In this document: positions 4,078 to 13,001 of the stretch, piece after piece | Layout of the letters: each line of letters starts with the position of its first letter | Position numbering within the stretch: the first letter of the stretch is position 1 | DNA from: an uncultured Coriobacteriales bacterium | Lineage (GTDB): Bacteria > Actinomycetota > Coriobacteriia > Coriobacteriales > UMGS124 | Assembly: GCA_903789505.1 (NCBI GenBank) | Contig: CAIFEU010000014.1 | Coordinates: forward strand, 3,253 to 27,252 | Reading direction: 5' to 3' | Length of the DNA stretch: 24,000 nt | The notes under the pieces: generated by a model | Told to the model about the DNA's origin: nothing | The model's database searches: none | The model's input: the letters and a program-made list of their open reading frames with translations, nothing else | Translations under genes and position numbers: made by a program

Positions 4078-4956
4078 ATGGGCGGCAGGGACGTCGAGCT
4101 TGAGGAGTCGGGGACCGTTCTCGGGAAGGAGGGCGGCGCGTCCGGTCTGAGCAGGCGCGCCCTGCTGGCGGGCCTTGCGGGCCTGGTCGCGGCGCTGGCG
4201 GGAACGGCACTTGCCGGATGCTCCGGCGCGGCGTCGAGCGCCGGCGCGGCGGGCGTCCCCGCGACGTCGGCGTCGGCATCGTCGGGTGCGTCCGCGGGCG
4301 GTAACACCAAGCTCGCAGCCGCGTCCGCGGCGTCGTCGGGGGCGGACTCGATCGCGAGCTCCCTCAGGGGGACAGGCGCGGCGGTCGTGTACTTCTCGAT
4401 GCCGCTCACCTCGGCGCCCGACCTGGACGTGGAGAGCGGCGCGAGCGTGCTCGTGCGCGGCGACGGCTCCATGGTGGGCCTCAACCAGATGGTTGCCGAG
4501 TACGTGAGCCAGCAGACCGGCGCCGACCTGATCCGCATCGTTGCGCAGGACGGGTGGTATCCCACCGACACGCCCGAAGACCTGATCGACTTCGCCCAGC
4601 AGGAGCAGGACGACGACGGGCGGCCGCCCTACACGCTGCAGGCGCCCGACGGCAGCGAGATGGGTTCGCTGGCGGGCTACGACACGCTCTACATCGGCTA
4701 CCCCATCTGGTGGTACGAGCTCCCGATGATCATGGACACGTTCTTCGAGAGCGAGGACCTGTCCGGCAAGACTATCCACATGTTCGTCGTGCATGGCGGC
4801 AGCGGCCTCTCGGGGACGCCGGCGGACATCGAGCGGATGCAGCCCGGCGCGTCCGTCGACGAGAACGGGCTGTCCATCAATCGCGCCGTCGTGGGAAGCG
4901 AGGGCGAGAGCGACGCCCATAGCTGGCTCGTGGGCATGGGGGCAATCGATGAGTAG
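4078..4956 (+). CDS. Exported flavodoxin-like lipoprotein (Tat signal + lipobox; flavodoxin_4-like core)
   Basis: ATG 4078 follows the purine-rich GGGAAGGCGGGG. The twin-arginine motif LSRRALLAGL is followed by the canonical lipobox LAGC and an A/S-rich linker. The core has VVYFSMP and LYIGYPIWWYELPMIMDTFFES...TIHMFVVHGGSG, which is typical of the short flavodoxin family. Confidence 0.8.
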   Translation: MGGRDVELEESGTVLGKEGGASGLSRRALLAGLAGLVAALAGTALAGCSGAASSAGAAGVPATSASASSGASAGGNTKLAAASAASSGADSIASSLRGTGAAVVYFSMPLTSAPDLDVESGASVLVRGDGSMVGLNQMVAEYVSQQTGADLIRIVAQDGWYPTDTPEDLIDFAQQEQDDDGRPPYTLQAPDGSEMGSLAGYDTLYIGYPIWWYELPMIMDTFFESEDLSGKTIHMFVVHGGSGLSGTPADIERMQPGASVDENGLSINRAVVGSEGESDAHSWLVGMGAIDE

Positions 4957-5860
4957 GGCGGCGGCGCCTCCGACGACGCCTGCGGCAGCGGCCCTGGCCG
5001 AGGCGGCGGGCGGCAGCGTCGCGGGCGATGCCGACGCGCGGCCACGCGCGGCTTCAGTCTCCGCCCCGCGGCGTTCCGGCGCCCGCGGGGGCGTCGTCGT
5101 GCGCCGCACGAGGACGGCAATCGACGCGGCGATGGTGGTCCTGCTGCTGCTCCAGATGGGGCGGCAGCTGATGCCGAGCGCCGTGCACGAGGCGTGCGGG
5201 ATTGCCCTGGGCGCACTCGCGGTGGCCCACGTCGTGCTGAACCGCCGCTGGTTCAGGGGGCTGGCGCGGGGCAGGTGGGACGCCGCCCGCGCGCTGCGCA
5301 CCGTCATCGACGCTGCCTGCATCGCGATTCTGCTCGCCATGGTCGCGAGCGGGCTGGGGGCGAGCGGGTTTCTGCGTGATGTCGTCCCCGCCGTGGGACG
5401 CCCCTCGATGTACCGGGGCGCGCACATGACGTTCGTCTACCTGGCGCTGATCGTGTTCTCGCTCCCGCGCGGGCCCCCCGGGCCGCCCACGGCCGCGCGC
5501 GCCCGCGCGGCGCGCGGGGCCGGCCGGGGCCGCGCCCGCGCGCGGGACGCCGACGCCCGGGCGGCGGCAGGCGTGCGAGGGGCGGCCCGCCGCGATGCCC
5601 GAGGCAATCTCCCTCTTGCCGCGCGCGTGGCGTCGCGCGTCGCTGTCGCGTCGCTCTGCGCGGTCGGCGCCTATGAGCTTGTGAACCTGCAGCTCATCCC
5701 CTACATCACGCATGCCGTGAGGTTCGCCTTCATCGACACGAGCACGCCCCTGGTGCCCTACCTCGCTCAGTATGCCTCCGTCATGGTGCTGTTCGCGACG
5801 CTGGGGCGCTGCCTCGACGGGCTGCTGACGCGCCTTGCGCGGCGCCGCCGGAGGGCGTGA
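4949..5860 (+). CDS. Polytopic membrane protein, DUF4405-like (His-containing, putative cytochrome-b-type)
   Basis: ATG 4949 overlaps the flavodoxin stop (ATGAGTAG, 8-nt overlap), suggesting translational coupling. The signature HEACGIALGALAVAHVVLNRRWF is present, with further membrane-embedded His in AHMTFVYLAL and ITHAVRF. The ORF-track start at 4793 lies inside the upstream gene. Confidence 0.65.
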   Translation: MSRAAAPPTTPAAAALAEAAGGSVAGDADARPRAASVSAPRRSGARGGVVVRRTRTAIDAAMVVLLLLQMGRQLMPSAVHEACGIALGALAVAHVVLNRRWFRGLARGRWDAARALRTVIDAACIAILLAMVASGLGASGFLRDVVPAVGRPSMYRGAHMTFVYLALIVFSLPRGPPGPPTAARARAARGAGRGRARARDADARAAAGVRGAARRDARGNLPLAARVASRVAVASLCAVGAYELVNLQLIPYITHAVRFAFIDTSTPLVPYLAQYASVMVLFATLGRCLDGLLTRLARRRRRA

Positions 5861-7665: not shown

Positions 7666-7891
7666 GTACGAGACGCGCGTGGGCTTTTCCCTTCCGGGTG
7701 TCGCGAACGTTCTGACAATCTCATACCGCTCTCGAACTGGTCGAATCACTCCAGCGCGGCGACGATCGGCTCAGCCGGGCGGGTCACGCCGATGCCGAGC
7801 CGCCGCGTCGTGCTCGTAGCTTCGCCTGCGTCCGATTCCGTTCCGGCAGGCTTGTCCATGGAGCGGACCGTTCGATCAGATGGGAGTCAGA

Positions 7892-9760
7892 ATGTCTTCA
7901 CGCATTGGCTTTGACGGCGACCTCGAGGTGTTGGGTCGCGACGACGTCGCCTCGGGCGAGAGGGGAATGAGCAGAAGGAGCTTCGTTGGGTCGTCCGCGG
8001 CGGCGCTGGGGGCCATGGGGGCGGCGGCGATCGTCTGCCCGGCGCTTGCCCAGGCCAAGTCGGCGGGTTCATCGGCGGCTGACTCGGTGAGGGAGAATGG
8101 CCCCCTGTTCTCCAACCCGGGAACCTACTCGGCCACGGCGCCCGGCAGGAACGGGGACGTGGAGCTCGAGGTCGAGTTCACCGCCGATTCGATTGCCTCC
8201 ATCACCGTCACGTCGACCAAGGAGACGCTGACGATCGGCGGCCAGGCGATGGACATCTTGACCGAGCGCGCGCTCGACGGCCAGACCATCGAGCTCGACA
8301 ACGTCTCGGGGGCCACGTTCAGCTCGAACGCGTTCATCAAAGCGCTCAAGGACTGTGTCGAGCAGGCAGGGGGCGATCAGGATGCGCTTTCGGTCGAGGT
8401 CGAGGTGGACGAGCCCGATTACGAGACCGATGCCGACGTGCTTGTGCTTGGGGCGGGCGCGGCCGGCCTGACCGCCGCCCTCACGGCGGCACAGGAGGGC
8501 GCCAAGGTCATCCTGCTCGAGAAGGGTGACATCGTCGGCGGCAACACGAACGCGGCGAACTCGGGAATCAACGCCGCGGAGTCGCAGGTCCAGATTGACG
8601 CGGGGTTGGAAGGGACGACCGTTGACGACCTGGTCGAGGTCCAGATGAACAACGATCTGGCGCGCTCCGAGCTGGTCGACGCATTCGCGCAGGCCACCGG
8701 CGAGGTCGTCGACTGGCTTACCGGGCTGGGAGTCGTGTTCGAGACGAGCTCCGACAACCCGCTGCAGCTCTCTTGCACGAGTGACATTGCGCGCACCGGG
8801 GACTCGCTGGTCAAGGCGCTCCACGACGCGATTCTGCAGGATGACCGCGTCAGCCTGTACAAGGGCATTGCCGCGACGTCGCTCACGACCGACCCCGACG
8901 GCAGGGTGACGGGCGCCGTCGCAACCGACGCCTCCGGGCGGGAAGCCGAGTTCTCTGCCGGCGCCGTCATCGTCGCGACGGGCGGCTACGGGAAGAATCA
9001 CGACATGGTGCTGCAGTATCGCCCGGACCTCGCGAACACAATCACCGACGAGATTGCCCCGACGACCGGCGACGGATTCGTCATGACGACGGCCGTGGGC
9101 GCCGTGCCGGTCGATATGGGCGAGATTAACTTCCACGGCCATTGCGTCCCCGGGTACAGCATGATGTTCACTCGCGACGTGCCCGGAGGCCGCACCGCGC
9201 CCGCAGGCATCTACGTCAACGCCGAGGGCGAGCGCTTTGCCGACGAGACGAGCTTCCCCAACGACGTCTACCAGCCCGTGCTCGACCAGACCGACGGCGC
9301 GGTGTTCCACGTCTTCCCCGAGACGTTCGTGACTGACGTAATTAAGGCGATGCTGGCGACGGGGTTCGCCTCGAAGGCCGACTCCCCCGAGGAGCTCGCC
9401 AAGGACCTCGGAGTCGACCCCGACGGCCTCTCCCAGACCGTGCAGGCATGGAACGAGGACATCGCGAGCGGCGGTGACGAGCAGTTCGGGCGCACCGACG
9501 AGAACGCCGTCGCCCTGGAGGGCACGCTCTACGGCTACGAGTTCCACGATGCCGTCCACTATTTCATGGGAGGCGTGCTTATCAACCCGAGCGCCCAGGT
9601 GGTCGATGAGAATGGCGACCCGATTCCGGGTCTGTACGCCGCGGGCGAGGTGACCGGGGGCATGCAGGGCACCACGCGCGTCGACGGAACCGGCCTCATG
9701 GACGGCTTCACGTTCGGCCGCATCGCCGGCAAGGCCGCCGCGGGCGAGGTGTTGGCGTAG
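7892..9760 (+). CDS. Tat-exported flavoprotein reductase: FMN_bind domain + FAD-dependent fumarate/urocanate-reductase-like domain
   Basis: Twin-arginine signal MSRRSFVGSSAAALGAMGAAAIVCPALAQA. The FMN_bind flavinylation motif DNVSGATFSS is at 8297-8326. Rossmann motif DVLVLGAGAAGLTAALTAAQEGAKVILLEK. C-terminal motif AAGEVTGGMQGTTRVDG...FGRIAG. The start is uncertain: ATG 7892 has GGGAG plus a 5-nt spacer, and the alternatives are ATG 7880 and ATG 7967 (MSRRSF). Confidence 0.88.
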   Translation: MSSRIGFDGDLEVLGRDDVASGERGMSRRSFVGSSAAALGAMGAAAIVCPALAQAKSAGSSAADSVRENGPLFSNPGTYSATAPGRNGDVELEVEFTADSIASITVTSTKETLTIGGQAMDILTERALDGQTIELDNVSGATFSSNAFIKALKDCVEQAGGDQDALSVEVEVDEPDYETDADVLVLGAGAAGLTAALTAAQEGAKVILLEKGDIVGGNTNAANSGINAAESQVQIDAGLEGTTVDDLVEVQMNNDLARSELVDAFAQATGEVVDWLTGLGVVFETSSDNPLQLSCTSDIARTGDSLVKALHDAILQDDRVSLYKGIAATSLTTDPDGRVTGAVATDASGREAEFSAGAVIVATGGYGKNHDMVLQYRPDLANTITDEIAPTTGDGFVMTTAVGAVPVDMGEINFHGHCVPGYSMMFTRDVPGGRTAPAGIYVNAEGERFADETSFPNDVYQPVLDQTDGAVFHVFPETFVTDVIKAMLATGFASKADSPEELAKDLGVDPDGLSQTVQAWNEDIASGGDEQFGRTDENAVALEGTLYGYEFHDAVHYFMGGVLINPSAQVVDENGDPIPGLYAAGEVTGGMQGTTRVDGTGLMDGFTFGRIAGKAAAGEVLA

Positions 9761-9841: not shown

Positions 9842-10585
9842 CTACCCTACGCGGGGAGGCGTCCTCCAGTCGCAGGGGTCCGGCGCCGAGACCGCGCGCA
9901 CGCCTGCGACGATGATGTCGATCCCGTCGAAGAAGGCCCGCTCGTCGTACGCCCCCTCCGCCGCCTCCATCCACTCCTGGCCCTCGGGGTCGGGGCGGGG
10001 GGAGCCGTCGGATAGGCTCGCCAGCTCGGCCTGGATGAAGCCGCCCAGGAACGCGTCGACGATCCTCCAGAGTCGGCGCAGCGTCTCCGGCGGTATCCCC
10101 TGGGCCTCGTGCAGTCGGTATATTCGCTTCGTGTGCTCGATGAGCCCGGCCGAGTACCCGTTCGTCTCCACCTTGAACAGGTTGCATCGACGGTGGCGCA
10201 GGTACATCTGACGAATCGACGACATGGTGCGGCGCAGTGTGTCGTCCCACCTCTCGCCGGGGATGGGGCTGGTGTCCACCTCCTGGAACGCCTTGGCCAG
10301 CGCCGCGACGCGCACGTCGGCGATGGAGTCGAAGTACGTGTACAGCGCCATGGGCGTCTTGCCCAGGCGGGCGGCGAGCTTGCGCGCGGAGACGTTCTCG
10401 ATGCCGATCTCGTCCCCCAGGGTCAGCGCCTCGGCGGCGATCTGCTCGCGGGTGAGCGAGGGGGCCGCGCCGGGCGTCCCCGGCCTTCTCCCGTCGCGGC
10501 GTCCGCTCTCGGCGGCATTGCGACGCGGGCTCTCGCCCGTCTTTTGCGCCTGCCTCTCCGAAGCCTCGGTGGCGTCGGTCATCAT
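9842..10585 (-). CDS. TetR/AcrR family transcriptional regulator
   Basis: Start is ATG 10583-10585 (MMTDATEAS) with SD GGAAGGGAG just upstream; the track ORF extended to 11092 is spurious. HTH: IENVSARKLAARLGKTPMALYTYF. Stop is TAG 9842-9844. Confidence 0.85.
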   Translation of the reverse strand: MMTDATEASERQAQKTGESPRRNAAESGRRDGRRPGTPGAAPSLTREQIAAEALTLGDEIGIENVSARKLAARLGKTPMALYTYFDSIADVRVAALAKAFQEVDTSPIPGERWDDTLRRTMSSIRQMYLRHRRCNLFKVETNGYSAGLIEHTKRIYRLHEAQGIPPETLRRLWRIVDAFLGGFIQAELASLSDGSPRPDPEGQEWMEAAEGAYDERAFFDGIDIIVAGVRAVSAPDPCDWRTPPRVG

Positions 10586-10802
10586 GGGCTCCCTTCCTGT
10601 CGCTTCCTGGCCCAATGCCCCGAGGGCGTCTGAGGGCCTGTCGGAATCGGGCGCCCGAACTCGACCCATTATCCCCTCTCGCCCGCCCTGCGTGTGCCTG
10701 TCCGAGAAAAGGCATCCGGATTGCGTGCGCCGGATGCGCGCGCCGACTGCGTGCGCACGGAGCCGCTCCCGCCCGATGCGGCGAATTCGCCTTCGCGAGC
10801 CG

Positions 10803-10952: not shown

Positions 10953-13001
10953 ATGCGAATTGACGACGCGAGGAACGGGGAAGTCGAGGGCGCGTCTGCC
11001 TGCTCCGAGGCGAGGGTGTGCTCCGTCTCGCGCAGGGGCCTCATCGCGGGCGCGACGCTCGGGGCGGCCGCCATGGGAGTAGCGGGCGGCATGGGCGCCG
11101 CCCGCGCGTTCGGCGCGGACTCGGGCTCGGGCGCGGCGGATGCCGGCTCGAGCGCGGCAAAAGACGCGACCGCCGAGGCTGGTGCCGCCGACTACGTGAA
11201 CATCTACGCAGACGGTGTCAACCTCATGCCCGCCCGCAAGGCGACCTGCCCCGGCCCCCAGGGGCCGGTCGCGTTCGAGTCGCGCCAGATCGACGAGGGC
11301 GAAATCGTCCGCACGGAGGAGTTCGACCTCGTCGTGGTGGGCGCCGGCATCGGTGGCCTCATGGCGACGCTCAAAGCGGCCGACATGGGCGCGAACGTTC
11401 TGCTGCTCGAGAAGATGACGCGCGGCCGCGGCTGCTTCGAGTGCTTCGGCGCGGTGGGCGCGAAGTGCCAGGAGGGCACCGAGATCGACAAGACCGCCCT
11501 GCTCGACGAGATCCTGCGCAGCGCCTACTACCGCACCCGTCCCGAGCCTGCCGTCACCTACGTGAACCGCTCCGGCGAGGCGACGGACTTCTGGCAGGAG
11601 ATGCTCGACAAGGGCAGCAACGGGTTCAAGATCACCAAGGTCGAGCAGACCCCGTCCACGTGCGGCTTCCCGGCGATGACCCAGCTGATCGACTCCGAGC
11701 TCGGGTTCTACGACTCGCCCGCTCTGCCTGCGGACGCGGGCTCGCGCTCCGGGCTCTCCGGCATCTACGTGTGCCTGGAGATGCAGGAGGTGGCGAAGAG
11801 CGCCTACGACAACGTCGACATGCGCTTCTCGACCCCTGCCGTGCAGCTCACCACCGATGGCTCCGGTGCGGTGACCGGCGTAATCGCCAAGGACGCCGAC
11901 GGCTACTTCCGCGTGAGCTCGAAGCTCGGCGTGATCCTGGCGACCGGCGGCTACGACGCCAACCCGCGCCTGATGGAGGCCTGGACGCGCCCCGAGGACT
12001 ACGCTACCTCGAGCTGGTGGAACCCGAGCTGGGGCACGACGGGCGACGGCCACATGATGGGCCTTGCCGTTGGCGCCCAGATGGACTCGGTCCCTCAGCC
12101 GGTCATGAACTTCCGCTGGGGCACGCCCGACTCCTTTGCCGACGCGCGCACCTGGAACGCCGTGTACTTCGGCATCCTGGTCAACGGGCGCGGAAGGCGC
12201 TTCGTGCGCGAGGACCTGCCGTTCCAGTGCGTCTCCAACGCGCAGAACGCCCAGCCCGCCTACGGCAAGAACTGCTGGTACGTCTTCGACGAGGGCATGA
12301 TGGAGGGCATGCAGGACGCCGTCGAGGAGTTCGAGGACAAGGGCTGGCTGTACGAGGGTGCCACCCCCGAGGAGCTCGCCGAGAACGTGGGAATCGACCC
12401 GCAGGGCCTCTCGGCGACGCTCGAGGAGTACGCCGCGGGGTTCGAGGCGGGTGCCGACGCGCTCGGCCGCGACCTGACGCAGACGATGCCGTTCACCGGG
12501 GGCAAGCTCTACGCCTTCGTGAGCAACTCCAACGTCCTCGCGACCGTGGGCGGCCTGACCATCGACGGCAACTGTCAGGTGCTCGACACCTCTGACAGGC
12601 CGATTCCCGGCCTCTGGGCGTGCGGCAACGCGAGCGGCAACTTCTTCGCCGGCAACTACCCGCGCCACATCCCCGGCACCAGCATCGGCCGCGCGATAAC
12701 CTTCGGCTACGTCGCTGCGGAGAGCGCCGTCAACGGCGTCCAGGGCGAGGACCCGCTCGTCGACAGCAAGGCGCCGGCGCTGGCGAGCTACGACCCGTCG
12801 GCAGCGGACCCGAGCGCCGCGGTCGCCGACGACGCGCTCGGCGTCTGGGACCCCGCGAACCCGATTCACGGCTCGAGCTTGGCATACACCGACGCCGACA
12901 TCGCCGTGGCGACCCAGAGCTGCGACAACTGCCACGCGTATCGCCCGGGCGACTCCACCGTCGCCGACGGCATGACGTTCTCGGCCTCCGCCGACAAGTA
13001 G
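10953..13001 (+). CDS. Tat-signal FAD-dependent oxidoreductase (fumarate-reductase/KstD-like FAD_binding_2 family) with C-terminal CXXCH tail
   Basis: ATG 10953 follows GGAAGGGGA; the track ORF start at 10224 is an extension. Tat motif VSRRGLIAGATLGAAAMGVAGGMGAARAFG. Rossmann motif DLVVVGAGIGGLMATLKAADMGANVLLLEK. C-terminal FAD motif PGLWACGNASGNFF...GTSIGRAITFGY. Tail with SCDNCHAY; the CXXCH codons are at 12921-12935. Confidence 0.88.
   Translation: MRIDDARNGEVEGASACSEARVCSVSRRGLIAGATLGAAAMGVAGGMGAARAFGADSGSGAADAGSSAAKDATAEAGAADYVNIYADGVNLMPARKATCPGPQGPVAFESRQIDEGEIVRTEEFDLVVVGAGIGGLMATLKAADMGANVLLLEKMTRGRGCFECFGAVGAKCQEGTEIDKTALLDEILRSAYYRTRPEPAVTYVNRSGEATDFWQEMLDKGSNGFKITKVEQTPSTCGFPAMTQLIDSELGFYDSPALPADAGSRSGLSGIYVCLEMQEVAKSAYDNVDMRFSTPAVQLTTDGSGAVTGVIAKDADGYFRVSSKLGVILATGGYDANPRLMEAWTRPEDYATSSWWNPSWGTTGDGHMMGLAVGAQMDSVPQPVMNFRWGTPDSFADARTWNAVYFGILVNGRGRRFVREDLPFQCVSNAQNAQPAYGKNCWYVFDEGMMEGMQDAVEEFEDKGWLYEGATPEELAENVGIDPQGLSATLEEYAAGFEAGADALGRDLTQTMPFTGGKLYAFVSNSNVLATVGGLTIDGNCQVLDTSDRPIPGLWACGNASGNFFAGNYPRHIPGTSIGRAITFGYVAAESAVNGVQGEDPLVDSKAPALASYDPSAADPSAAVADDALGVWDPANPIHGSSLAYTDADIAVATQSCDNCHAYRPGDSTVADGMTFSASADK

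What the first reader, a model, noticed from the sequence alone, without database searches (positions are those of the whole stretch)
12740..13001. C-terminal ~85-aa tail with a single CXXCH haem-c motif on a Tat-signal flavoprotein
After the last FAD motif (GRAITFGYVAAESA), the second reductase continues into a low-complexity Asp/Ala/Ser/Pro-rich linker and then ...IAVATQSCDNCHAYRPGDSTVADGMTF. The CXXCH codons are at 12921-12935. Possible distal ligands are nearby (His in NPIHGSS, Met in DGMTF). Flavocytochrome c reductases are known, but classically they have N-terminal multihaem domains and use Sec export, because haem c is attached outside the cell to unfolded protein. A twin-arginine signal (SRRGLIAG) combined with a single C-terminal CXXCH is therefore an unusual pairing. 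It might replace the separate cytochrome partner found at loci such as cgr1/cgr2. It could equally be a chance CXXCH.
Basis: partly seen in the sequence, partly recalled or inferred. Interest (0 to 1): 0.62.

Follow-up and report, generated by a model that had tools for sequence, protein, structure and literature searches.

The report
Tat flavoprotein with fused one-haem tail
The 85-residue tail of this exported flavin reductase is not a chance motif: it is a shrunken, fused copy of the small three-haem cytochrome that relatives encode as a separate gene just downstream. A haem-c site therefore apparently leaves the cell by the folded-protein (Tat) route, which is unusual.

Summary
Gene 10953-13001 (+) encodes a 682-aa protein with three parts: a twin-arginine signal (SRRGLIAG), a FAD_binding_2 domain, and a ~90-aa tail carrying CDNCH at 12921-12935.

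The motif is not chance. About 50 protein clusters (67-83% identical) carry the tail. It evolves fast (44% column identity against 79% in the core), yet W632, H639, G640, C657, N659, C660, H661 and T669 are invariant and M674 is 98% conserved.

The closest tail-less homologues (all five loci checked) have a ~125-aa lipoprotein trihaem cytochrome c (PF14537) gene 3-4 nt downstream or overlapping. Profile comparison shows the tail is homologous to it (hhalign 97.8%, E 7e-13).

The tail keeps only the third CXXCH and one distal His. Through the trihaem family, these map to haem IV and His61 of Shewanella flavocytochrome c3, the FAD-proximal haem. The tail clade is monophyletic, which points to one fusion event.

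The genome has TatC, a System I Ccm cluster and genuine multihaem cytochromes.

Most likely mechanism: the FAD-loaded protein is exported by Tat with a hydrophilic apo-tail, Ccm then attaches haem outside the cell, and the haem feeds electrons to FAD. Haem binding itself is inferred, not shown.

This is a new variant of flavocytochrome c: permuted domain order, one haem, Tat export.

The parts
10953..13001 (+). Whole gene: a 682-aa Tat-signal FAD reductase with a C-terminal monohaem cytochrome-c remnant
   Evidence: ORF and SD GGAAGGGG upstream; identical protein P0001 in the database
10953..11111 (+). Signal peptide (aa 1-~53) with twin-arginine motif SRRGLIAG at 11028-11051, a Gly/Ala-rich h-region and ARA-FG at its end
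   Evidence: The [ST]RRxF[VM]xG motif is present in 49/51 tail-bearing homologues. TatC is present in the genome. The cleavage site was read by eye only.
11325..12662 (+). FAD_binding_2 catalytic domain (aa 125-570; GAGIGG dinucleotide fold at the start)
   Evidence: Pfam PF00890 E 3e-39. Best solved relatives are Shewanella Ifc3 1QO8 (E 2e-31), Fcc3 1D4D and urocanate reductase 6T85.
12729..12836 (+). Acidic Ala/Asp/Ser/Pro-rich linker (aa 593-628). It takes the place of the signal peptide, lipobox, spacer and haem-1 region of the ancestral separate cytochrome.
   Evidence: Low conservation except A607, L610 and Y613. The hhalign match starts only at tail residue 29.
12837..12998 (+). Cytochrome-c remnant (aa 629-682), homologous to the C-terminal two thirds of the PF14537 trihaem lipoprotein cytochrome
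   Evidence: hhalign A1 vs A2: probability 97.8%, E 7e-13. An HMM of the trihaem family hits only this ORF in the genome.
12867..12869 (+). His639 (in WxPxxPIHG), the predicted distal haem ligand
   Evidence: Invariant in all aligned tails (46 distinct; 43 besides the query). It aligns to the second His of NPHxxxHGG in the trihaem family. That His aligns to His61 of Fcc3, the residue changed in PDB 1P2H and 1P2E.
12921..12935 (+). CDNCH haem-attachment motif (Cys657, Cys660, His661)
   Evidence: C, N, C and H are invariant and D is 93% conserved. The motif aligns to the third CXXCH of the trihaem cytochrome and shares its flank C[DE]NCHxYxP.
12957..12974 (+). Conserved TVxDxM motif (T669 100%, V670 98%, D672 91%, M674 98%). 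It could be a docking surface or an alternative Met ligand.
   Evidence: One homologue (P0041) has Leu in place of Met.
9842..10633 (-). Divergent TetR-family regulator, the likely regulator of the reductase gene
   Evidence: Pfam TetR_N/TetR_C_1. A TetR gene sits divergently upstream of the gene in all three fused loci examined and co-oriented downstream of the cytochrome gene in four of the five unfused loci.

Best explanation
The gene encodes a permuted, minimal flavocytochrome c. An ancestral two-gene cassette consisted of a Tat-exported FAD reductase followed by a Sec-exported, lipid-anchored trihaem cytochrome c of the c3/STC type. The two genes fused once. In the fusion the cytochrome lost its signal peptide, its first two haem sites and the His that aligns with the haem III ligand His58 of Fcc3. 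It kept the last CXXCH and that site's own distal His. This surviving pair is the equivalent of haem IV in Shewanella flavocytochrome c3, the haem next to the FAD.

Proposed mechanism:
1. The flavoprotein folds and binds FAD in the cytoplasm, while the acidic, hydrophilic ~90-aa tail stays haem-free and unstructured (inferred).
2. The twin-arginine signal takes the protein through Tat (inferred from the motif and from TatC in the genome).
3. Outside the membrane, the System I Ccm machinery (CcmABC, CcmE, CcmF) attaches haem to Cys657 and Cys660. His661 is the proximal ligand and His639 the distal one (inferred from homology and conservation).
4. The haem takes single electrons from a membrane-bound multihaem cytochrome or another exported carrier and passes them to FAD. 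FAD then reduces a still unknown, TetR-controlled organic substrate (inferred).
For: Conservation of the tail:
- It is present in ~50 clusters, with the CxNCH motif, H639 and W632 invariant, while the tail as a whole is only 44% conserved per column against 79% for the core.
- The protein has only four His residues. Two are in the tail and both are invariant.

Origin from the partner cytochrome:
- Every tail-less homologue whose locus was examined has a 122-128-aa PF14537 trihaem lipoprotein cytochrome gene 3-4 nt downstream or overlapping. These are G124/L011, L013-L014, L015, L016-L017 and L018.
- Fused loci have no such gene.
- hhalign of tails against the trihaem family gives 97.8% probability and E 7e-13. 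The tail CXXCH falls on site 3 and the tail His on the second His of NPHxxxHGG. The first His is replaced by Tyr/Ala and site 2 is deleted.
- The trihaem profile matches haems II-IV of Shewanella Fcc3/Ifc3 (E 5e-6 to 1e-4). The retained His falls on the position mutated in 1P2H/1P2E.
- The flavin domain is also most similar to Ifc3/Fcc3.
- The tail clade is monophyletic (SH-aLRT 99) and nested among tail-less proteins.

Export and maturation:
- The twin-arginine motif is present in 49/51 fused proteins and TatC is in the genome.
- A Ccm cluster lies on contig C8 and the genome has genuine multihaem cytochromes.
- The tail is hydrophilic (GRAVY -0.21, charge -11, no hydrophobic stretch). Tat tolerates such unstructured segments (review PMC13673990).

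Specificity:
- A tail profile finds no other protein context among 1.84 billion representatives.
Against: - No experiment shows covalent haem.
- Pfam and NCBIfam do not recognise the tail, and the tail profile alone finds no solved cytochrome.
- AlphaFold confidence in the tail is only moderate and falls below 50 at the CXXCH. Foldseek finds nothing.
- From my own knowledge: Sanders, Wethkamp and Lill (2001) found that apocytochrome c behind a Tat signal was not exported by E. coli Tat unless haem had been attached in the cytoplasm.
- When NosZ gained a cytochrome c domain (cNosZ), the export route changed to Sec (PMC8139620). Tat combined with haem c is therefore against precedent.
- No CcdA/DsbD-type thiol reductase was found in this 91%-complete genome.
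- The distal ligand could be Met674 rather than His639.
- The mapping to Fcc3 haem IV is transitive (tail to trihaem family to Fcc3). The His61-haem IV ligand assignment and the position of haem IV next to FAD are recalled from the literature, not read from coordinates.
Confidence: 0.75

Rival explanations
1. The tail is a genuine descendant of the partner cytochrome but no longer binds haem. It would serve as a docking peptide for another cytochrome, or its Cys pair would form a disulfide or bind a metal.
For: Two of three haem sites have clearly been lost, so degeneration is under way. AlphaFold is unsure about the CXXCH segment. Tat export of an apocytochrome is against precedent (cNosZ, PMC8139620). 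No thiol-reduction partner was found.
Against: A vestige would not keep Cys, Cys, His and the cognate distal His invariant across ~50 clusters while the rest of the tail drifts to 44%. The losses come in matched sets, site 2 together with the His that aligns to the haem III ligand of Fcc3, while the matched pair for site 3 is retained. A CXXC disulfide or metal site would not need the His directly after the second Cys.
Confidence: 0.17
2. Despite the RR motif, the protein is exported unfolded by Sec, as the Shewanella flavocytochromes are. Haem and FAD are both inserted outside the cell, so nothing about the export is unusual.
For: Shewanella Fcc3 is Sec-exported and receives its FAD in the periplasm (own knowledge). 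The window protein's motif, SRRGLIAG, departs from the consensus SRRxFLK.
Against: Homologues carry near-consensus [ST]RR[NSG]F[VM]KG in 49/51 cases, and the tail-less paralogues have it too (63/68). The separate partner cytochromes use lipoprotein Sec signals, and only 2 of 113 have an RR pattern. The two routes are therefore clearly distinguished in this system. A monoderm cell has no closed periplasm in which to load non-covalent FAD (inference).
Confidence: 0.06
3. The CXXCH is a chance motif, or the fusion is an assembly or frameshift artefact that joins two genes.
For: A few chance C..CH motifs are expected per genome. In relatives the two genes are only 3-4 nt apart.
Against: The same fused architecture, with an invariant motif, occurs in about 50 independent clusters from isolates and metagenomes, including Slackia heliotrinireducens and Denitrobacterium detoxificans. 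The tail lacks the signal peptide and two haem sites of the separate gene, so it is not a simple read-through.
Confidence: 0.01

Closest known systems
Shewanella flavocytochrome c3 fumarate reductases (Fcc3 1QJD/1D4D, Ifc3 1QO8)
   Same: Both modules are homologous. The flavin domain matches at E 2e-31. The partner-cytochrome family from which the tail derives matches haems II-IV. The logic is the same: a haem next to FAD feeds single electrons to a soluble extracytoplasmic C=C reductase.
   Different: The domain order is reversed: the haem module is C-terminal here and N-terminal there. There is one haem instead of four and a Tat signal instead of a Sec signal. The TIGR01813 score of 149.8 is below the 285.45 cut-off. 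In the Ifc3 alignment the fumarate-binding His/Arg positions do not look conserved (by eye), so the substrate is probably not fumarate.
Cgr1/Cgr2 of Eggerthella lenta (cardiac glycoside reductase)
   Same: It pairs a Tat-predicted FAD_binding_2 reductase with a PF14537 cytochrome c partner in one operon, in the same bacterial class, with LuxR/TetR-type regulators nearby (PMC5953540).
   Different: In cgr the cytochrome is a separate, membrane-anchored NapC/NrfH-like multihaem protein encoded upstream, and Cgr2 also needs a [4Fe-4S] cluster. Here the cytochrome is fused, C-terminal and reduced to one haem.
Flavoprotein plus trihaem lipoprotein cytochrome cassette of tail-less homologues (Rubneribacter, Adlercreutzia, Gordonibacter, Raoultibacter and others)
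   Same: This is the direct evolutionary precursor. The flavoprotein is 57-72% identical, carries the same Tat signal and has a TetR neighbour. The tail aligns to the cytochrome at E 7e-13.
   Different: It has two genes, three haems, and a cytochrome with its own Sec/lipobox signal (108/113). I found no paper that describes this cassette.
Cytochrome c nitrous oxide reductase (cNosZ, Wolinella succinogenes)
   Same: A normally Tat-exported redox enzyme that acquired a C-terminal monohaem cytochrome c domain as a built-in electron entry point (PMC8139620).
   Different: cNosZ switched to Sec export. This family kept the twin-arginine signal, presumably because FAD has to be loaded in the cytoplasm.
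UrdA-type FMN_bind-FAD reductases (for example the neighbouring gene at 7880-9760)
   Same: A Tat-signal flavin reductase with a built-in one-cofactor electron-entry module that is modified only after export. In UrdA-type enzymes that modification is ApbE flavinylation (PMC11334425).
   Different: The entry module is an N-terminal covalent-FMN domain, not a C-terminal haem c.

Membership tests
c-type cytochrome (covalent haem) | CXXCH attachment motif | tested here: met
   CDNCH at aa 657-661; invariant C, N, C and H in all aligned homologues (46 distinct tails)
c-type cytochrome (covalent haem) | Sequence homology to a recognised cytochrome c family | tested here: met
   hhalign to the PF14537 trihaem family: 97.8%, E 7e-13. 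The direct Pfam scan of the tail was negative and the tail profile against the PDB was not significant.
c-type cytochrome (covalent haem) | Conserved sixth (distal) ligand | tested here: met
   His639 100% and Met674 98% conserved. His639 aligns to the Fcc3 His61 position. Which of the two is the ligand is undecided.
c-type cytochrome (covalent haem) | Extracytoplasmic location and a haem-c maturation system in the genome | tested here: met
   Signal peptide. ccmE-ccmF-ccmA-ccmB-ccmC on contig C8. Octahaem and NrfA-like cytochromes are present. No ResB.
c-type cytochrome (covalent haem) | Haem covalently bound to the protein | not testable with these tools
   Needs haem staining, a pyridine haemochrome spectrum or mass spectrometry
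Flavocytochrome c3 (TIGR01813 / Fcc3-Ifc3 type) | Homologous FAD_binding_2 catalytic domain | tested here: met
   1QO8 E 2e-31, 1D4D E 2e-27
Flavocytochrome c3 (TIGR01813 / Fcc3-Ifc3 type) | Score above the curated family cut-off | tested here: not met
   TIGR01813: 149.8 bits against a cut-off of 285.45
Flavocytochrome c3 (TIGR01813 / Fcc3-Ifc3 type) | N-terminal tetrahaem domain and Sec export | tested here: not met
   No CXXCH in the N-terminal part; a single C-terminal site; a twin-arginine signal
Flavocytochrome c3 (TIGR01813 / Fcc3-Ifc3 type) | Fumarate-binding and proton-delivery residues (His365, Arg402, His504, Arg545 of Fcc3) | tested here: inconclusive
   Inspected only by eye in the Ifc3 alignment. 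The QAHPT His position reads Asn. No structure-based check was made.
Tat substrate | Twin-arginine motif followed by an h-region, and TatC in the genome | tested here: met
   SRRGLIAG plus a Gly/Ala h-region. Motif present in 49/51 homologues. TatC E 5e-54.
Tat substrate | Export that depends on Tat | not testable with these tools
   Needs an RR-to-KK change or a tat mutant
Two-gene flavin reductase plus c3-type cytochrome cassette (Cgr1/Cgr2-like) | Separate cytochrome c gene in the operon | tested here: not met
   No cytochrome gene flanks the window gene or the fused homologues. No standalone family member exists in the genome.

The most novel reading that the evidence does not exclude
This clade would be a natural Tat substrate that carries a Ccm-dependent haem-c site. 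A folded, FAD-loaded enzyme would drag an unfolded apocytochrome tail through Tat and have it matured outside the cell. That breaks the textbook rule that c-type cytochromes travel by Sec. It would also define a ~50-residue minimal monohaem module, derived from haem IV of the c3/STC fold, as a portable electron-entry tag.
Probability: 0.65. Interest if true: 0.78.

Novelty: new variant of a known kind. Interest (0 to 1): 0.66.

Why it matters
- Export and maturation. It is a natural test of two rules of bacterial protein export: Tat for cofactors inserted in the cytoplasm, and Sec for haem c attached outside. A single polypeptide that needs both would show that Tat passes an unfolded, hydrophilic apocytochrome segment in vivo. 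It would also show that System I can mature a CXXCH at the end of an already folded enzyme.
- Evolution. The case gives a clean, datable example of gene fusion followed by cofactor loss. Matched sets (a haem site and its ligand) were lost together, and the FAD-proximal pair was kept.
- Gut microbiology. Coriobacteriia carry up to ~100 exported flavin reductases per genome that act on dietary, host and drug molecules. How each is wired to the electron-transport chain is largely unknown. This work identifies a widespread flavoprotein plus trihaem lipoprotein cassette and its fused derivative as one such wiring scheme.

Tried and rejected
- Pfam and NCBIfam scans of the tail alone gave no hit.
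- A ResB/CcsB search of the genome found nothing. The maturation system is System I instead.
- The tail profile against PDB sequences gave only a weak SoxA hit at E 0.038, which I did not use.
- AlphaFold of the full protein (pLDDT 72.7; tail 56-76; CXXCH below 50) and of the tail alone (68.5) could not be used for docking. Foldseek against the PDB gave only E~9 hits.
- A profile of four tails against 1.84 billion representatives recovered only fragments of the same family plus repeat-rich false hits. No intermediate two- or three-haem fusions appeared, and no other host protein.
- The LuxR, FMN_bind reductase and flavoprotein order in L016 looked like conserved synteny with the window. The neighbouring reductases are only 26% identical, so I dropped that claim.
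- Lipobox gain in the Tat signal of fused proteins (33/48 against 8/59) looked like compensation for the lost lipid anchor. On the tree it amounts to one or two events, so it is only an observation.
- Literature searches for a natural Tat-signal protein with a C-terminal cytochrome c domain, or for this cassette, found nothing specific.
- A DsbD/CcdA search of the genome was negative.
Full report
**1. What is in the sequence**

The finding lies at the 3' end of a gene at 10953-13001 (+). A Shine-Dalgarno sequence (GGAAGGGG) precedes the ATG. The 682-aa product has three parts.
- A long signal peptide carries SRRGLIAG (11028-11051) and a Gly/Ala-rich hydrophobic region.
- A FAD_binding_2 domain spans aa 125-570 (PF00890, E 3e-39).
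- After ...GRAITFGYVAAESA (12687-12728) comes a 90-aa tail rich in Ala, Asp, Ser and Pro, ending ...NPIHGSS...QSCDNCHAYRPGDSTVADGMTFSASADK.

Neither Pfam nor NCBIfam recognises the tail. From composition, only 0.002-0.005 C..CH motifs are expected in a protein of this size. Across a whole genome a handful of chance motifs would still occur, so conservation had to decide the matter.

**2. The tail is conserved where a haem site needs it**

A search of 5.8 billion proteins returned two length classes of close homologues.
- About 50 clusters (637-709 aa, 67-83% identical) include Slackia heliotrinireducens, Denitrobacterium detoxificans, a Raoultibacter MAG and many gut metagenome contigs. All carry the tail.
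- A second class (~560-570 aa, 56-72% identical) includes Rubneribacter, Gordonibacter and Adlercreutzia. These proteins end shortly after the last FAD motif.

In an alignment of 46 distinct tails, the invariant positions are W632, H639, G640, C657, N659, C660, H661 and T669. M674 is 98% conserved. The tail as a whole is only 44% identical per column to the query, against 79% for the catalytic core. So it drifts fast everywhere except at the residues a c-type haem site needs. The protein contains only four His, and the two in the tail are both invariant. Chance is excluded.

**3. Where the tail came from**

A six-frame search of 401 genomes of the class with the tail found strong hits in only three other genomes, always at the end of a long flavoprotein ORF. 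It also found weak hits (E~0.002) in small ORFs.

Those small ORFs are ~122-128-aa lipoproteins with three CXXCH motifs. In G124 this gene overlaps the stop codon of a tail-less Tat flavoprotein (L011). The same arrangement appears next to every tail-less homologue I looked up: Tat flavoprotein, then 3-4 nt, then a PF14537 (Cytochrom_c3_2) gene. A co-oriented TetR gene follows in four of the five loci; none was seen in G124/L011. The tail-less loci examined were:
- P0055 (Rubneribacter, L013/L014)
- P0078 (Adlercreutzia, L015)
- the partners of P0147 (L016/L017) and P0150 (L018)

A search with the G124 cytochrome gave 152 family members at E <= 0.001. Of the 120 listed, 114 have exactly three CXXCH. 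Of 113 with a complete N-terminus, 108 have a lipobox and only 2 have an RR pattern. They are Sec/lipoprotein-type cytochromes.

A profile-profile comparison of the tails (A1) with the mature trihaem cytochromes (A2) gave 97.8% probability and E 7e-13. The alignment maps as follows:
- tail LGxWNPYxPIHG aligns with LGDWNPHxxxHGG;
- tail CDNCHxYRPG aligns with the third site, C[ED]xCHxYxP;
- the second CXXCH falls in a gap;
- the first CXXCH lies in the region that has become the linker;
- the first His of NPH is Tyr or Ala in the tails, and the second His is invariant.

Fused loci have no separate cytochrome gene downstream, and their TetR gene is divergent upstream, as in the window. This holds for L004-L006, L019 (P0042, Denitrobacterium detoxificans), L020 (Slackia sp.) and L021. 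An HMM of the trihaem family hits nothing in the window's own genome except this tail.

A maximum-likelihood tree of 111 flavoprotein cores places all 50 tail-bearing proteins in one clade (SH-aLRT 99). That clade is nested among tail-less proteins, so a single fusion event suffices. A profile of four tails searched against 1.84 billion representative proteins recovered only fragments of this same family. The module therefore exists in no other protein context.

**4. Which haem survived**

The trihaem profile matches the N-terminal cytochrome domain of the Shewanella flavocytochromes c3 (1QJD, 1D4D, 1QO8; E 5e-6 to 1e-4). The match covers residues 33-90, which hold haem sites II, III and IV.

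The best two PDB hits, 1P2H and 1P2E, differ from wild type at exactly the position that aligns with the retained His (YNAHAS[M/A]FPG against YNAHASHFPG). From the literature as I recall it (Rothery et al. 2003), these are the H61M and H61A variants, and His61 is an axial ligand of haem IV. In the Fcc3 structures as I recall them (Taylor, Leys and Bamford, 1999), haem IV is the haem nearest the FAD. I did not re-derive either point from coordinates.

The flavin domain of the window protein is also most similar to Ifc3/Fcc3 (E 2e-31). The tail thus keeps the CXXCH and the distal His of the FAD-proximal haem. It has lost site III together with the His that aligns with the haem III ligand His58 of Fcc3 (also as I recall it), and it has lost site II. 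Loss in matched sets, with one complete set retained, is what a still-functional haem site predicts. It is hard to reconcile with a dead remnant.

A bis-His, low-potential haem would also suit electron delivery to FAD better than a His/Met haem would. That is an inference, and Met674 remains an alternative ligand.

**5. Can the cell make it?**

The 2.75-Mb genome (91% complete) encodes TatC (E 5e-54). ResB is absent. Contig C8 carries a System I cluster:
- CcmE, of the variant type with Cys in CPSKY instead of the usual His, and with two CcmE-domain matches;
- CcmF (with the CcmF_C domain);
- an ABC ATPase in the CcmA position (not scanned against a family library);
- CcmB and CcmC.

The genome also has real multihaem cytochromes:
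- a membrane-anchored octahaem protein with a C-terminal FMN_bind domain;
- an NrfA-like protein with an FMN_bind domain;
- two proteins with three CXXCH followed by a molybdopterin-oxidoreductase region; the Oxidored_molyb domain was confirmed by Pfam for the C85 protein only.

No DsbD/CcdA-type thiol reductase was found.

**6. The export problem and the proposed mechanism**

Haem c is attached outside the membrane to unfolded protein, and known flavocytochromes c use Sec. When NosZ acquired a cytochrome c domain, it moved from Tat to Sec (PMC8139620).

Here the twin-arginine motif is retained in 49 of 51 fused proteins, mostly as near-consensus [ST]RRxF[VM]KG. The ancestral separate cytochrome used Sec. 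The fusion therefore moved a haem-c site onto the Tat route.

This is mechanistically plausible. The tail is acidic and hydrophilic (GRAVY -0.21, net charge -11, maximum 9-residue hydropathy 1.13). Tat tolerates unstructured segments as long as no hydrophobic stretch is exposed (review PMC13673990). System I needs little more than an accessible CXXCH (own knowledge).

I therefore propose this sequence: cytoplasmic folding and FAD loading; Tat export with a disordered apo-tail; Ccm-dependent haem attachment outside; docking of the haem module next to FAD.

Likely electron donors are the octahaem membrane cytochrome, or the exported flavodoxin/DUF4405 pair upstream in the window (Flavodoxin_4 hit; earlier scan note e1-2640114).

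The substrate is unknown. The protein scores below every NCBIfam equivalog cut-off, and the fumarate-binding positions do not look conserved in the Ifc3 alignment (by eye). The gene is one of roughly a hundred FAD_binding_2 loci in this genome (119 matches, some of them split).

**7. What is shown and what is inferred**

Shown:
- the motif and its coordinates;
- its conservation;
- the homology of the tail to the neighbouring-gene cytochrome family;
- the single origin of the fusion;
- the presence of Tat and Ccm genes.

Inferred:
- that haem is actually attached;
- that export is by Tat;
- that His639 is the sixth ligand;
- that the haem sits next to FAD.

AlphaFold gave only moderate confidence for the tail, and I could not inspect the coordinates. 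Foldseek was uninformative.

**8. Comparison with the known, and novelty**

The system works like a flavocytochrome c3 and is built from homologues of both of its modules. It fails the membership tests for that family: the domain order is reversed, there is one haem instead of four, the signal is Tat rather than Sec, and the score is below the TIGR01813 cut-off.

It is the fused counterpart of the Cgr1/Cgr2 type of two-gene system. Cgr1 is a PF14537 cytochrome and Cgr2 a Tat-predicted flavoprotein (PMC5953540).

I found no paper describing either the flavoprotein plus trihaem-lipoprotein cassette or the fused form. The scan's own notes hold nothing similar on other DNA.

I class it as a new variant of a known kind. 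Its interest lies mainly in the predicted Tat-then-Ccm maturation order, which can be tested directly.

Noticed in passing
Own genome contig C8:3028-8615 (outside the window): The cytochrome c maturation genes are a System I cluster in the order ccmE-ccmF-ccmA-ccmB-ccmC. CcmE has CPSKY (Cys instead of the usual haem-binding His, the variant known from archaea and Desulfovibrio) and gives two CcmE-domain matches. No ResB and no DsbD/CcdA was found.
   Followed up: partly
Own genome contigs C85:2953-4816(-) and C144:259-2530(-): Two proteins combine an N-terminal region with three CXXCH and a sulfite-oxidase-type molybdopterin region. Oxidored_molyb was confirmed by Pfam for the C85 protein; the C144 protein was read by eye only. 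Both sit behind signal peptides without twin arginines. This is the mirror-image puzzle: a cofactor inserted in the cytoplasm on an apparently Sec-type precursor. Start codons were not verified.
   Followed up: partly
Own genome contigs C38:8621-10280(-) and C26:15927-18003(+): A membrane-anchored octahaem cytochrome and an NrfA-like pentahaem-type cytochrome each carry a C-terminal FMN_bind domain. These haem-to-flavin fusions may be the electron hubs for the many exported reductases.
   Followed up: partly
Whole own genome: A 2.75-Mb genome gave 119 FAD_binding_2 matches, roughly 90-100 loci. This is a 'high-reductase' genome of the kind described for Eggerthellaceae. Only the window gene carries the haem tail.
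   Followed up: no
Signal peptides of homologues P0006-P0051: 33 of 48 tail-bearing proteins have a lipobox Cys after the Tat h-region, making them putative Tat lipoproteins, against 8 of 59 tail-less ones. The window protein and the basal fused lineages lack it. This may compensate for the lost lipid anchor of the separate cytochrome, but it reflects only one or two events on the tree.
   Followed up: partly
window 9842-10633(-) compared with loci L013, L015, L016, L018-L021: The TetR regulator is divergent and upstream in all fused loci examined. It is co-oriented and downstream of the cytochrome gene in four of the five unfused loci. The fusion therefore coincided with a rearrangement of the cassette.
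   Followed up: partly
Trihaem cytochrome family (P0121-P0240): The family has two subtypes. One ends ...C[EN]xCHVYAPDEExLY, with no free His after site 3. The other ends ...CxxCHxWPHNP, with an extra His. The tail resembles the first subtype, although its flavoprotein is closer to partners of the second.
   Followed up: no
window 4078-5860: A Flavodoxin_4-domain protein lies upstream of the reductases (Pfam hit). An earlier scan note reads it as an exported flavodoxin plus a DUF4405 haem-b module. It is a candidate alternative electron donor to the tail haem.
   Followed up: no
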